DNA of 64,000 nt from NCBI RefSeq assembly GCF_009914755.1, contig NC_060936.1. One strand, 5' to 3'. The translations under genes were made by a program, and so were the position numbers. The notes beneath the pieces were generated by a model. The model was not told where the DNA came from, did not search any database, and worked only from the letters and a program-made list of their open reading frames with translations. The stretch comes from the human T2T-CHM13v2.0 reference genome, Homo sapiens. Every line of letters begins with the position of its first letter. The first letter of the stretch is position 1. Positions 9,566 to 12,500 of this stretch are shown piece after piece.

Positions 9566-12500
9566 GAGGGGTATTCCAAGATGGCTGAATAGGAACAGCT
9601 CCAGTCTGCAGCTCCCAGCGTGATTGATGTAGAAGACAGGTGATTTCTGCATTTTCAAATGAGGTACCTGGTTCATCTCAATGGGACTGGTTGGACAGTG
9701 GGTGTAGCTCACAGAGGGCAAGCCAAAGCAGGGCATGGCAGGGTGTTGCCTCACCTTCTACACACTGCTTTAAATGTGTATACACTTTGGGAGGCTGAAA
9801 ATATACTGATTTTCAGGGCTTAAAAAAAGCCAAAGTGCAAGGGGTTGGGGGATTTCCCTTTCTTGGCCAAGAGAAGCTGTCACAGACTACCTGGAAAAAA
9901 CGGGATACTCCCGCCCAAATACAGTGCTTTTCCCAAGGTCTTAGCAACTGGCAGACAAGGTGATTCTCTCCCATGCCTGGCTCGGTGGCTCCCACGCCCA
10001 TGAAGCCTTGCTCACTGCTAGTGCAGCAGTCTGAGATAGATCTGCGAGACAGCAGCCTGGCTGGGGAAGGGGCATCCGCCATTGCTGAGGCTTGAGTAGG
10101 TAAACAAAGCGGCCAGGAAGCTCGAACTGGGTGGATCCTACCACAGCTCAACAAAGCCTGCTGACTCTAGACTCCACCTCTGTCGGCCGGGCGTAGCTGA
10201 ACAAAAGGCAGCAGACAACTTCTGCAGGCTTAAATGTCCCTGTCTGACAGCTCTGAAGAGAGCAGGGCTTCTCCCAGCATGGCGTTAGAGCTCTGAGAAT
10301 GGATAGACTGCTTCCTCAAGTGGGTCCCTGACCCCCAAGTAGCCTAACTGGGAGACACCTCCCAGTAGGGGCTGACAGACACCTCATATAGGTGGCTGCC
10401 CCTCTGGGACAAAGCTTCCAGAGGAAGGATCAGGCAGTAATATTTGCTGTTCTGCAGCCTCCGCTGGTGATACCCAGGCAAACAGGGTCTGGAGTGGAAC
10501 TCCTGCAAACTCCAACAGACCTGCAGCTGAAGATCCTGTTAGAAGGAAAACTAACAAACAGAAAGAAACAACAAGCATCAACATTAACAAAAAGGTCATC
10601 TACACCAAAACCCCATTTGTAGGTCACCAACATCAAAGACCAAAGGTAGAAAAAACTGCAAAGATGGAGAGAAACCAGAGAAGAAAAGCTGAAAATTCTA
10701 AAAATCAGAGTGCCTCTTCTCCTCCAAAGGATCGCAGCTCCTCGCCAGCAATGGAACAAAGCTGGATGGAGAATGAATTTGACAAGTTGACAGAAGTAGT
10801 CTTCAGAAGGTCGATAATAACAAACTTCTCCGAGCGAAAGGAAAATGTTCGAACCCATTGCAAGAAAGCTACAAACCTTGAAAAAAGATTAGATGAATGG
10901 CTAACTAGAATAAACAGTGTAGAGAAGACCTTAAATTACCTGATGGAGCTGAAAACCCTGGCACAAAAACTTCACGACACATGCACAAGTTTCAATAGCC
11001 GATTTGATCAAGTGGAAGAAAGGGTATTGGTGATTGAAGATCAAATGGATGAAAGGAAGTGAGATGAGAAGTTTAAAGAAAAAAGAGTAAAAAGAAACAA
11101 ACAAAGCCTCCAAGAAATATGGGGCTATGTGAAAAGCAAAAATCTACGTTTGATTGGTGTACCTGAAAGTGATGGGGAGGATGGAACCAAGTCGGAAAAC
11201 ACTCTTCAGGATATTATCCAGGAAAACTTTCCCAACATAGCAAGGCAGGCCAACATTCAAATTCAGGAAATACAGAGAACACCACAAAGATACTCCTCGA
11301 GAAGAGCAACCCCAAGACACATAATTGTCAGATTCACCAAGGTTGAAATGAAGGAAAAAGTGTTAAGGGCAACCAGAGAGAAAGGTAATCTGCCCGCCTC
11401 GGCCTCCCAAAGTGCTGGGATTACAGGCATGAGCCACCACGCCTGGCCAATATGTGCTAGGTAATCCCAGCAGTTTTGTCACCAACAGGACTGCTCTAAA
11501 AGAGCTCCTGAAGGAAGCACTAAACATGGAAGGGAACAACTGGTACCAGCCACTGCAGATACATGCCAAATTGTAAAGACCATTGATGCTAGGAAGAAAC
11601 TGCATCAACTAATGAGGAAAATAACCAGCTAACATCATAATGACAGGATCAAATTCACACATAACAATATTAACCTTAAATGTAAATGTGCTAAATGCCC
11701 CAATTAAAAGACACAGACTGGCAAATTGGATAAAGAATCAAGACCCATCGGTGTGCTGTATTCAGGAAACCCATCTCACGTGCAAAGACACACATAGACT
11801 CAAAATAAAGGGATGGAGGAAGATCTACCAAGCAAAAGGAAAACAAAAAAAGGCAGGAGTTGCAATCCTAGTCTCTGATAAAACAGACTTTAAACCAACA
11901 AAGATCAAAAGAGACAAATAAGGCCATTACATAATGGTAAAGGGATCAATTCAACAAGAAGAGCTAACCATCCTAAAAATATATGCAACCAATACAGGAG
12001 CACCCAGATTCATAAAGCAAGTCCTTAGAGACCTACAAATTGACTTAGACTCCCACACAATAACAATGGGAGACTTTAACACCCCACTGTCAACATTAAA
12101 CAGATCAACAAGACAGAAGGTTAACAAGGATATCCAGGAATTGAATTCAGCTCTGCACCAAGAGGACCTAATAGACATCTACAGAACTCTCCACCCCAAA
12201 TCAACAGCATATACATTCTTCTCAGCACCACATCGCATCTATTCCAAAATTGACCACATAGTTGGAAGTAAAGCACTCCTCAGCAAATGTAAAAGAACAG
12301 AAACTATAACAAACTGTCTCTCAGACAACAGTGCAATCAAACTAGAACTCAGGATTAAGAAACTCACTCAAAACTGCTCAATTACATGGAAACTGAACAA
12401 CTGGCTCCTGAATTACTACTGGATACATAAAGAAATGAAGGCAGAAATAAAGATGTTCTTTGAAACCAACAAGAACAAAGACACAATGTACCAGAATCTC

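What the first reader, a model, noticed from the sequence alone, without database searches (positions are those of the whole stretch)
9756..9832. 77-bp mosaic insertion in the copy 2 5'UTR built from three templates, one 9 kb away
Seen: where copy 1 has CACC-CGGG-AAGTGCAAGGGG, copy 2 has an insert made of (i) 9757-9779 TCTACACACTGCTTTAAATGTGT, antisense L1 ORF2 matching 22/23 to 4337-4359 and to rc 12505-12527; (ii) 9783-9798 CACTTTGGGAGGCTGA, Alu left arm; (iii) 9797-9827 GAAAATATACTGATTTTCAGGGCTTAAAAAA, a 31/31 reverse complement of non-Alu sequence at 18759-18789. Pieces ii and iii overlap by GA. Known: chains of short templated inserts joined by microhomology are typical of polymerase-theta end joining and FoSTeS/MMBIR. 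Inference: a germline template-switch scar that records contact between 9.8 kb and 18.8 kb.
Basis: partly seen in the sequence, partly recalled or inferred. Interest (0 to 1): 0.78.

Follow-up and report, generated by a model that had tools for sequence, protein, structure and literature searches.

The report
Template-switch repair scars in one L1
An old, dead L1 element upstream of ACSS3 carries two patchwork inserts copied in short pieces from DNA a few kilobases away, an ordinary but unusually legible scar of error-prone DNA repair with no sign of function.

Summary
Window 9756-9832 is a 77-nt insert. It replaces the 4 nt that 29 of 29 related L1 5'UTRs and copy 1 have at that point. Its 31-mer (9797-9827) is an exact inverted copy of 18759-18789. 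These are the only two sites in the 3.1-Gb assembly at up to 2 mismatches. The insert and both inner junctions occur nowhere else.

The L1 piece has 1,979 exact genomic matches, so its source cannot be fixed. The same applies to the Alu piece.

New here: the same L1 carries a second private mosaic, 11387-11473, which replaces about 200 nt of L1. Its core, 11383-11455, copies 18401-18473: an Alu end plus 7 nt of that Alu's own flank. That donor lies about 290 nt from the donor of the 31-mer.

Best reading: DNA-templated serial template switching primed by microhomology (MMBIR/FoSTeS class), probably one event, using donors 2.7-9 kb away in cis. This is a known kind of scar. About 100 germline templated insertions per person, built from up to five templates, are in print (PMC8421209).

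Not resolved: the pathway, the age, and whether there was one event or two. No primate orthologues could be searched. Interest is modest.

The parts
9566..15700 (+). L1 copy 2, full length, host of both scars (ends approximate)
   Evidence: Aligns along its length to copy 1 (5239 of 5941 aligned positions identical) and to 20 relatives at 85-92%
9756..9832 (+). Scar A: 77-nt mosaic replacing about 4 nt (C/TGGG) of the L1 5'UTR
   Evidence: 0 of 29 relatives and not copy 1 have it. The 110-nt stretch around it is unique in the genome
9757..9779 (+). Piece i: antisense L1 ORF2, 23 nt, source not assignable
   Evidence: 22/23 to 4337-4359 and to rc 12505-12527. 1,979 exact sites genome-wide. 11 of 18 relatives with data carry the exact reverse complement in their own ORF2
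9777..9789 (+). Possible piece i': 13 nt equal to rc 15859-15871, bridging the ATA filler (suggestive only)
   Evidence: Expected matches covering the filler: 0.035 in the window, 0.0026 inverted within 10 kb downstream. Empirical control 416 of 6000
9783..9798 (+). Piece ii: Alu left-arm 16-mer, sense orientation, source not assignable
   Evidence: Exact in three Alus of the window. 15/16 (one C/T) to rc 11399-11414 and rc 18417-18432
9797..9827 (+). Piece iii: 31-nt exact inverted copy of 18759-18789, overlapping piece ii by GA
9828..9832 (+). AGCCA: unassigned filler. AGC would continue donor iii if one T is skipped
   Evidence: Read. Only 9-10-nt matches elsewhere, at chance level
18759..18789 (-). 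Donor of piece iii, in single-copy DNA
11387..11473 (+). Scar B: 87-nt mosaic replacing about 200 nt of L1 (ORF1 region)
   Evidence: 19 of 20 relatives break their alignment at 11382-11386 and resume at 11474-11476, with about 200 nt of their own in between. The 20th has a deletion there. Also. The 36-nt junction is unique in the genome at up to 3 mismatches
11383..11455 (+). Core of scar B: direct copy of 18401-18473 (66 nt of antisense Alu 5' end including AGGT shared with L1, plus 7 nt of non-Alu flank AATATGT)
   Evidence: 67 of 73 identical (family D1)
11461..11472 (+). 12-nt inverted Alu piece (rc of 11413-11424 or of 18431-18442), flanked by fillers GCTAG and G
18401..18473 (+). Donor of scar B: 5' end of a full antisense Alu (about 18158-18466) plus the start of its flanking repeat
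   Evidence: ATATG(G)TTTTTT lies on both sides of this Alu (18136-18149 and 18468-18478); 20 sites genome-wide carry this Alu end plus AATATGT, and two of them are these
12505..12527 (-). Candidate cis donor of piece i (copy 2's own ORF2)
   Evidence: 22/23 now. 17 of 18 relatives have T where copy 2 has a private C at about 12512
15859..15871 (-). Candidate cis donor of piece i'
18417..18432 (-). Candidate cis donor of piece ii
   Evidence: 15/16
1261..7345 (-). L1 copy 1, head to head with copy 2. Serves as the uninterrupted reference at both scars

Best explanation
Both patches are scars of DNA-templated, error-prone repair in the germline of an ancestor.

Proposed course: a 3' end growing through L1 copy 2 repeatedly let go of its template. 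Each time it re-annealed at 0-9 nt of homology to single-stranded DNA 2.7-9 kb away on the same chromosome, copied 12-73 nt, let go again, and finally returned to the L1 a few nucleotides (scar A) or about 200 nt (scar B) further on. This is the MMBIR/FoSTeS class of template switching.

I favour one event that left two switch clusters 1.55 kb apart, because both clusters visit the same 390-nt donor neighbourhood (18401-18789). The scars have no function. They lie in a dead L1, 13 kb upstream of ACSS3.

Shown: mosaic structure, privacy to this copy, uniqueness of the 31-mer, direction of transfer, donors retained.

Inferred: the pathway, a single event, cis donors for pieces i, i' and ii, and timing after the L1 inserted.
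For: - The ancestral state is known from the family. 0 of 29 related 5'UTRs and not copy 1 carry scar A. 19 of 20 informative relatives have about 200 nt of L1 where copy 2 has the 87 nt of scar B.
- Scar A, its two inner junctions and the junction of scar B occur once in 3.1 Gb. The changes therefore arose at this locus, not in a source element.
- The 31-mer has only its two sites.
- Scar B's core matches 18401-18473 at 67 of 73 and runs 7 nt past the Alu end into that Alu's own flanking repeat. Only 20 sites in the genome have this Alu end plus AATATGT, and two of them are these, 7,018 nt apart. My arithmetic: about 1e-4 expected within 10 kb by chance. Among the 19 such Alus, the 18.4-kb one ties for best (67/73).
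- The donors are intact, full elements or single-copy DNA. This fixes the direction of copying and shows copy, not cut.
- Junctions: GA (ii/iii), AGGT (left edge of B), and GGCCAATAT shared by the 18.4-kb donor and the L1 stretch that B deleted. There are small fillers and small deletions.
- Every piece of A can be read as an inverted copy of DNA downstream in cis, in order of increasing distance: 12.5, 15.9, 18.4, 18.8 kb.
- Copy 2's own ORF2 most likely once held the exact 23-mer (17 of 18 relatives).
- Multi-template germline insertions of this kind are documented. PMC8421209 (passages read): about 100 per person, up to five templates. PMC6902434 (passages read): a 182-bp junction insert from four segments by six switches.
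Against: - Pieces i and ii come from families with thousands of copies (1,979 exact sites for i). Their cis origin, and the neat order of donors, is therefore an assumption.
- The 13-mer for i' is only suggestive (empirical control 416 of 6000).
- Some junctions show no clean microhomology. At the left edge of A, CC is followed by a mismatch. AGCCA and GCTAG are unassigned.
- There is no excess of point changes in the 1.55 kb between the scars: 68 of 1454 non-CpG sites against 190 of 4106 downstream. The error-prone synthesis expected of a single BIR-like tract is therefore not visible.
- Scar B differs from its donor at 6 of 73 while the 31-mer differs at 0 of 31. This is compatible with one age but does not show it.
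- The main piece of B is a direct copy while all pieces of A are inverted, so no single simple strand rule covers both.
- The catalogue in PMC8421209 looked only for templates within 100 bp. These donors are 27-90 times further away.
Confidence: 0.6

Rival explanations
1. Two separate double-strand breaks, possibly in different generations, were each closed by polymerase-theta-type end joining (synthesis-dependent MMEJ) with abortive copying rounds. The shared donor neighbourhood would reflect a stable chromatin contact.
For: - Short pieces (12-31 nt), 2-4-nt overlaps, small fillers and small deletions.
- The 12-nt inverted piece in B lies about 40 nt from a possible local template, like a snap-back.
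- No hypermutated tract between the scars.
- Donor-to-patch identity differs between the scars: 31/31 against 67/73.
Against: - By recall, templates of polymerase theta insertions lie within tens to hundreds of nt of the break. Here the firm donors are 7 and 9 kb away.
- Two independent breaks in one L1 that both sample one 390-nt stretch is a coincidence unless a loop persists.
- The 73-nt piece is long for this route.
Confidence: 0.17
2. The patches arose while this L1 was being inserted. The growing cDNA, tethered at the target nick near 15.7 kb, jumped from the L1 RNA onto its own earlier cDNA and onto flanking DNA 0.2-3 kb from the nick, and back again.
For: - Read on the minus (cDNA) strand, all pieces of A would be templated by the strand that carries the primer and the earlier cDNA (12.5, 15.9, 18.4, 18.8 kb).
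- Measured from the nick, the donors are only 0.2-3 kb away.
- Template jumping by L1 reverse transcriptase is known (recalled, not checked in a paper here).
Against: - Patches look younger than the L1. There are 3 non-CpG differences in about 98 firm donor/patch sites. I expected about 7-9 if they are as old as copy 2, whose private non-CpG divergence is 4.6% against a relatives' mean of 3.5%. My Poisson estimate is P about 0.02-0.09, which is weak and biased by finding donors through exact matches.
- The main piece of B needs the opposite template strand.
- I know of no described case of internal excursions that return to the L1 RNA. I did not search for one.
Confidence: 0.1
3. The patches are RNA-derived (class 2 templated sequence insertions). 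cDNA made from local read-through transcripts, L1 RNA and Alu RNA was used to patch breaks by end joining.
For: - No target-site duplication and no poly(A), with a microdeletion, microhomology and fillers. These are the class 2 features listed in PMC5110952 (sections 8 and 9 read).
- L1 and Alu are the usual templates of the L1 reverse transcriptase.
- The Alu part of B ends exactly at Alu nucleotide 1, as a run-off would.
Against: - B continues 7 nt past the Alu end into genomic flank, which matches the 18.4-kb Alu's own flanking repeat. That does not fit a free Alu RNA.
- No transcript is annotated over 18.4-18.8 kb in the hub's gene table.
- The order of the pieces in A is the reverse of what one cDNA of a read-through transcript would give.
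- Chains of 13-31-nt pieces fit polymerase switching better than capture of one cDNA fragment.
Confidence: 0.05
4. Not a real event: a chance match, a dispersed repeat, an L1 subfamily feature or an assembly error.
For: None found. One 24-of-26 match to the ii/iii junction on contig 10 showed that such look-alikes exist.
Against: -, as given above.
- The contig 10 site has no Alu and no similarity in its flanks.
- Scar B has diverged from its donor (6 of 73), which an assembly error would not produce.
Confidence: 0.02

Closest known systems
Germline MMBIR-type templated insertions (MMB-TI; Osia et al. 2021, PMC8421209, passages read)
   Same: Short inserts that are copies of other sequence. 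They are often inverted, joined at microhomology, sometimes built from 3-5 templates, return to the original locus without copy-number change, and are present as inherited variants.
   Different: That survey searched for templates only within 100 bp of the insert. Here the firm donors are 7.0 and 9.0 kb away and the candidates 2.7-8.6 kb away. Two clusters lie 1.55 kb apart. One piece is a direct copy, not an inverted one.
FoSTeS/MMBIR iterative template switches at CNV breakpoint junctions (e.g. the PLP1 locus, PMC6902434, passages read)
   Same: Junction inserts stitched from several discontinuous segments kilobases away, with microhomology or microhomeology and small fillers.
   Different: Those accompany duplications or triplications. 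Here there is no copy-number change beyond the patches themselves.
Short-range template switches (Loytynoja and Goldman 2017, PMC5453318; search listing and abstract start only)
   Same: Inverted local copies that replace the original sequence. The 12-nt inverted Alu piece of scar B fits this if its template is the copy 37-60 nt upstream.
   Different: The range there is tens to hundreds of nt with a single excursion. This does not cover the kilobase-range pieces.
Class 2 templated sequence insertion polymorphisms (Onozawa and Aplan 2016, PMC5110952; abstract and sections 8 and 9 read)
   Same: No target-site duplication and no poly(A). End-joining features at the junctions. L1 fragments and intergenic DNA serve as sources.
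   Different: Those are described as patches from distant regions made via RNA. Here there are chains of very short pieces from the same few kilobases, and one piece includes an Alu together with its genomic flank.

Membership tests
MMBIR/FoSTeS-type templated insertion | The insert is a copy of sequence present elsewhere, and the donor is retained | tested here: met
   31/31 with 18759-18789 and 67/73 with 18401-18473. Both donors are still in place
MMBIR/FoSTeS-type templated insertion | Several templates are joined in one insert | tested here: met
   Scar A has 3 firm kinds of source (L1, Alu, single-copy DNA) plus a possible fourth. Scar B has at least 2
MMBIR/FoSTeS-type templated insertion | Microhomology at the switch points | tested here: inconclusive
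   GA at ii/iii, AGGT at the left edge of B, and GGCCAATAT shared by donor and L1. Against this, 3-5-nt fillers and no clean overlap at the left edge of A
MMBIR/FoSTeS-type templated insertion | Arises during replicative repair of a one-ended break | not testable with these tools
   No signature specific to this is visible. There is no excess of substitutions between the scars
MMB-TI as operationally defined in PMC8421209 | Inverted template within 100 bp of the insert | tested here: not met
   Firm donors are 7.0 and 9.0 kb away. Only the 12-nt piece of B has a possible template within 100 nt
Polymerase theta end joining with templated insertion | Templates in the immediate flanks of the break; inserts mostly under about 30 nt (recalled, not read here) | tested here: not met
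   Kilobase donors and a 73-nt piece
L1-mediated insertion (class 1 TSIP, ordinary Alu or L1 retrotransposition) | Target-site duplication, poly(A) tail, TTTT/A target (PMC5110952, section 9) | tested here: not met
   At both scars L1 sequence is lost, not duplicated. There is no A or T tract at either edge. The Alu piece of B is the 5' 66 nt only
Class 2 TSIP (RNA-derived patch) | End-joining junctions without L1 hallmarks | tested here: met
   This feature is shared with DNA-templated routes and so does not discriminate
Class 2 TSIP (RNA-derived patch) | The template is RNA | not testable with these tools
   Indirectly disfavoured. The Alu piece carries 7 nt of genomic flank, and the hub's table shows no annotated transcript over the donors
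L1 subfamily-specific 5'UTR segment | Shared by other copies of the subfamily | tested here: not met
   0 of 29 relatives. The whole 110-nt stretch is unique in the genome

The most novel reading that the evidence does not exclude
Both scars record one break-induced-replication-like tract in a primate germline. Its free 3' end snapped back again and again onto its own long single-stranded tail, or onto the gapped template behind it, reaching as far as 9 kb. It walked back towards the fork in order (18.8, 18.4, 15.9, 12.5 kb) and later slipped a second time 1.55 kb further on. The head-to-head pair of 6-kb L1s may have stalled the fork. If so, this locus would be a natural measurement of how far a dissociated end can search in cis in mammalian germ cells. 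Private changes in transposon copies, whose ancestral state is known from their family, would then be a general way to find long-range templated insertions that surveys limited to 100 bp miss.
Probability: 0.25. Interest if true: 0.5.

Novelty: new member of a known kind. Interest (0 to 1): 0.3.

Why it matters
The locus has no visible biological consequence. The L1 is dead and no gene or annotated element is touched.

Its value is as a clean natural example. The host is a transposon copy, so the state before the event can be read from dozens of sister copies without any outgroup, and every junction can be read to the nucleotide.

It shows that germline templated insertions can draw on donors 7-9 kb away and can occur in two clusters in one element. 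The one genome-wide catalogue I read (PMC8421209) looked only within 100 bp and names longer range as future work.

A systematic scan for private mosaics in L1 and Alu copies could measure how common long-range switching is.

Tried and rejected
- **Dispersed repeat.** Rejected: the 31-mer has 2 sites only, and the 417 nt around the donor are single-copy but for poly-T.
- **Insert inherited from a source L1.** Rejected.
- **Contig 10 look-alike of the ii/iii junction (24 of 26).** Read: no Alu and no similarity in the flanks, so taken as chance.
- **Assigning piece i.** Not possible: 1,979 exact sites.
- **Scar B as an ordinary Alu insertion later truncated.** Considered and judged less likely. 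It needs three further rearrangements, and it needs a chance 7-nt identity with the flank of the 18.4-kb Alu. It is not excluded.
- **Trans donors for scar B.** The 18 other Alus with the AATATGT flank were fetched. None extends past the flank, and none beats 67 of 73.
- **Other large private changes in copy 2.** None found. The 95-nt and other length differences against copy 1 are not breaks against the 20 relatives, so they belong to copy 1 or are small.
- **Hypermutation between the scars.** Not seen.
- **Bridging 13-mers for the fillers** (rc 15859-15871 for ATA; 27326-27338 for GCTAG). Analytic expectations are 0.035 and 0.019, but the empirical control rate is 6-7%. They are kept as suggestions only.
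- **Snap-back of piece i on itself to explain ATA.** Worked through by hand; it predicts AGA or GTA, not ATA.
- **Primate orthologues and other human haplotypes.** No tool here holds them.
- **Supplements of the papers cited.** Not opened.
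Full report
**What is there**

The window holds two full-length L1 elements head to head. Copy 1 is on the minus strand (about 1261-7345) and copy 2 on the plus strand (about 9566-15700). They are 88% identical over 5,941 aligned positions.

In the 5'UTR of copy 2 the sequence reads cctcacc, then 77 nt (9756-9832), then AAGTGCAAGGGG. Copy 1 has the two flanks next to each other. 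I fetched the 29 best relatives of this 5'UTR from the same genome. In 29 of 29 the flanks are separated by about 4 nt, mostly CGGG or TGGG, and none has an insert. The 77 nt therefore replace 3-4 nt of L1.

**The pieces of scar A**

- Piece iii, 9797-9827, is 31 of 31 identical to the reverse complement of 18759-18789.
  - A pattern search of the whole 3.1-Gb assembly at up to 2 mismatches finds these two sites and no other. The reversed control finds none.
  - In the window, 0 of 100 shuffles give two matches at up to 3 mismatches.
  - The 417 nt around the donor have no other match in the genome except for their poly-T tract.
  - The next-longest exact match of the donor's non-Alu neighbourhood to the window is 14 nt.
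- Piece i, 9757-9779, is antisense L1 ORF2. It matches copy 1 and copy 2's own ORF2 at 22 of 23. The exact 23-mer occurs 1,979 times in the genome, so its source cannot be named.
- Piece ii, 9783-9798, is an Alu left-arm 16-mer. It is exact in three Alus of the window and 15 of 16 in the nearer ones. It overlaps piece iii by GA.
- The whole 110-nt stretch, the i/ii junction (28-mer, up to 3 mismatches) and the ii/iii junction (26-mer) are unique in the genome. The one exception is a 24-of-26 look-alike on contig 10 that has no Alu and no similarity in its flanks.

**A second scar in the same L1**

Comparing copy 2 with 20 longer relatives shows only two places where nearly all alignments break:
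- 9755/9833, where the right segment starts at 9832-9838 in 20 of 20.
- 11386/11474, in 19 of 20. The 20th has its own deletion there.

At the second place the relatives and copy 1 have about 200 nt of L1, while copy 2 has 87 nt (11387-11473).

The core, 11383-11455, matches 18401-18473 at 67 of 73 in direct orientation (family D1). It consists of the last 66 nt of an antisense Alu plus AATATGT. In the 18.4-kb copy that heptamer is the start of the short repeat that flanks that full Alu on both sides.

Genome-wide only 20 sites have this Alu end followed by AATATGT. Two of them are these, 7,018 nt apart on one strand. By my arithmetic, about 1e-4 further sites are expected within 10 kb by chance. 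Of the 19 candidate Alus, the 18.4-kb one ties for the best match, and none of the other 18 continues past the flank.

After the core come GCTAG, a 12-nt inverted Alu piece (reverse complement of 11413-11424 or of 18431-18442), then G, and then L1 again. A 36-mer across these junctions is unique in the genome.

The donor of scar B lies about 290 nt from the donor of piece iii.

**Junctions**

- The left edge of B shares AGGT between L1 and donor.
- The 18.4-kb donor and the L1 stretch deleted by B share GGCCAATAT. This could be the homology that set that switch point, or it could be a coincidence. I leave it open.
- In A, the ATA between pieces i and ii is covered by a 13-mer equal to the reverse complement of 15859-15871. 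It would overlap piece i by 3 nt and piece ii by 7 nt.
  - The analytic expectation for such a match is 0.035 in the window and 0.0026 for an inverted match within 10 kb downstream.
  - In an empirical control, however, 416 of 6,000 random sites in unmasked DNA are covered by a repeated 13-mer. This piece is therefore only suggestive.
- The same holds for 27326-27338 and the GCTAG filler of B.
- AGCCA at the right edge of A is unassigned.

If the cis candidates are accepted, all pieces of A are inverted copies of downstream DNA in order of increasing distance: 12.5, 15.9, 18.4 and 18.8 kb.

**Age**

- Copy 2 differs from the majority of its relatives at 4.7% of non-CpG sites between the scars (68 of 1,454) and 4.6% downstream (190 of 4,106). 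The relatives' own mean is 3.5%. There is thus no excess of changes between the scars.
- At the one position where piece i differs from copy 2's ORF2, 17 of 18 relatives carry the base found in the patch, and 11 of 18 carry the exact 23-mer. Copy 2's own ORF2 was probably once an exact template.
- Firm donor/patch pairs differ at 0 of 31 and 6 of 73. By my reading, about 3 of the 6 are at decayed CpGs.
- Against 7-9 expected non-CpG differences if the patches were as old as the L1, 3 are seen. My Poisson estimate is P about 0.02-0.09. This is biased by the way donors are found. It hints that the event came after integration and no more.
- The age of scar A on its own is open. With trans donors for pieces i and ii it could even be recent.

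**Mechanism**

The donors are retained, the pieces are short, and the joins have little homology and small fillers. This is the picture of a 3' end that repeatedly dissociates and re-primes, which is the MMBIR/FoSTeS class.

- A single end-joining event cannot leave two patches 1.55 kb apart with faithful L1 between them. A replicative tract that slips twice can.
- Two separate breaks that both sample one 390-nt neighbourhood would need a persistent contact.
- I therefore favour one replicative event (0.6).
- Rivals: two end-joining events (0.17), template jumping at the time of L1 integration (0.1), RNA-derived patches (0.05), artefact or chance (0.02).
- The lack of hypermutation and the mixed orientation of the pieces count against a simple single-tract model.

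**Comparison with what is known**

- PMC8421209 (passages read) reports about 100 inherited templated insertions of 25 bp or more in each of two people. About a third are complex, with up to five templates. It searched for templates only within 100 bp and names longer range as future work.
- PMC6902434 (passages read) describes junction inserts stitched from four segments by six switches at PLP1 duplications.
- PMC5110952 (abstract, sections 8 and 9) defines RNA-derived class 1 and class 2 insertions.
  - The class 1 hallmarks are absent here.
  - The class 2 junction features are present but do not discriminate.
- PMC5453318 and its relatives were seen only as a search listing.

This locus is thus a new member of a known kind. 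It is unusual for kilobase-range donors without copy-number change and for two clusters that share a donor neighbourhood.

**Limits**

- Only one assembly was available. No primate orthologues or other human haplotypes could be searched.
- Supplements of the papers were not opened.
- Statements about polymerase theta range, L1 reverse-transcriptase jumping and L1 subfamily ages rest on recall.

Noticed in passing
window 1261-7345 (-) and 9566-15700 (+): Two full-length L1 copies lie head to head with a 2.2-kb spacer. They form a 6-kb inverted repeat at 88% identity (5239 of 5941 aligned positions). Whether this stalls forks and provoked the scars is speculation.
   Followed up: partly
window 9118-9283: A tandem duplication of 83 nt, two copies at 95% identity, lies in the spacer 290-450 nt upstream of copy 2 (family D11).
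   Followed up: no
window 9776-9785: A perfect 10-nt palindrome, GTGTATACAC, sits on the junction between pieces i and ii. By my estimate the chance of one in about 80 nt is roughly 0.08.
   Followed up: partly
window 12500-12504 and 18433-18437: The cis candidates for pieces i and ii both carry CCCAG (on the insert's strand) exactly at the switch point, yet the insert has ATA there instead. Unexplained. The 13-mer from 15859-15871 would make it irrelevant.
   Followed up: partly
window 5506-5514 (-), 11445-11453 and 18463-18471: GGCCAATAT occurs in the L1 stretch that scar B deleted (seen in copy 1) and also at the Alu/flank boundary of the 18.4-kb donor. It is either a 9-nt homology used in the switch or a coincidence.
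   Followed up: partly
window near 3996 (copy 1) against 12872-12966 (copy 2): Copy 1 lacks 95 nt that copy 2 has. The relatives align straight through this stretch of copy 2, so it is a deletion in copy 1.
   Followed up: partly
window 15650-15695: The 3' end of copy 2 runs into a (TA)n microsatellite rather than a plain A tail.
   Followed up: no
window 16420-17711: An older L1 fragment lies in the same orientation, 71-82% identical to the 3' part of copy 2 (families D7-D13, and inverted pairs I14-I24). It sits between copy 2 and the donor region.
   Followed up: no
L046 1490-1530 (G000 contig 10): A 24-of-26 match to the Alu/31-mer junction, including 17 exact nt, lies in sequence that is not an Alu. 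Taken as chance.
   Followed up: partly
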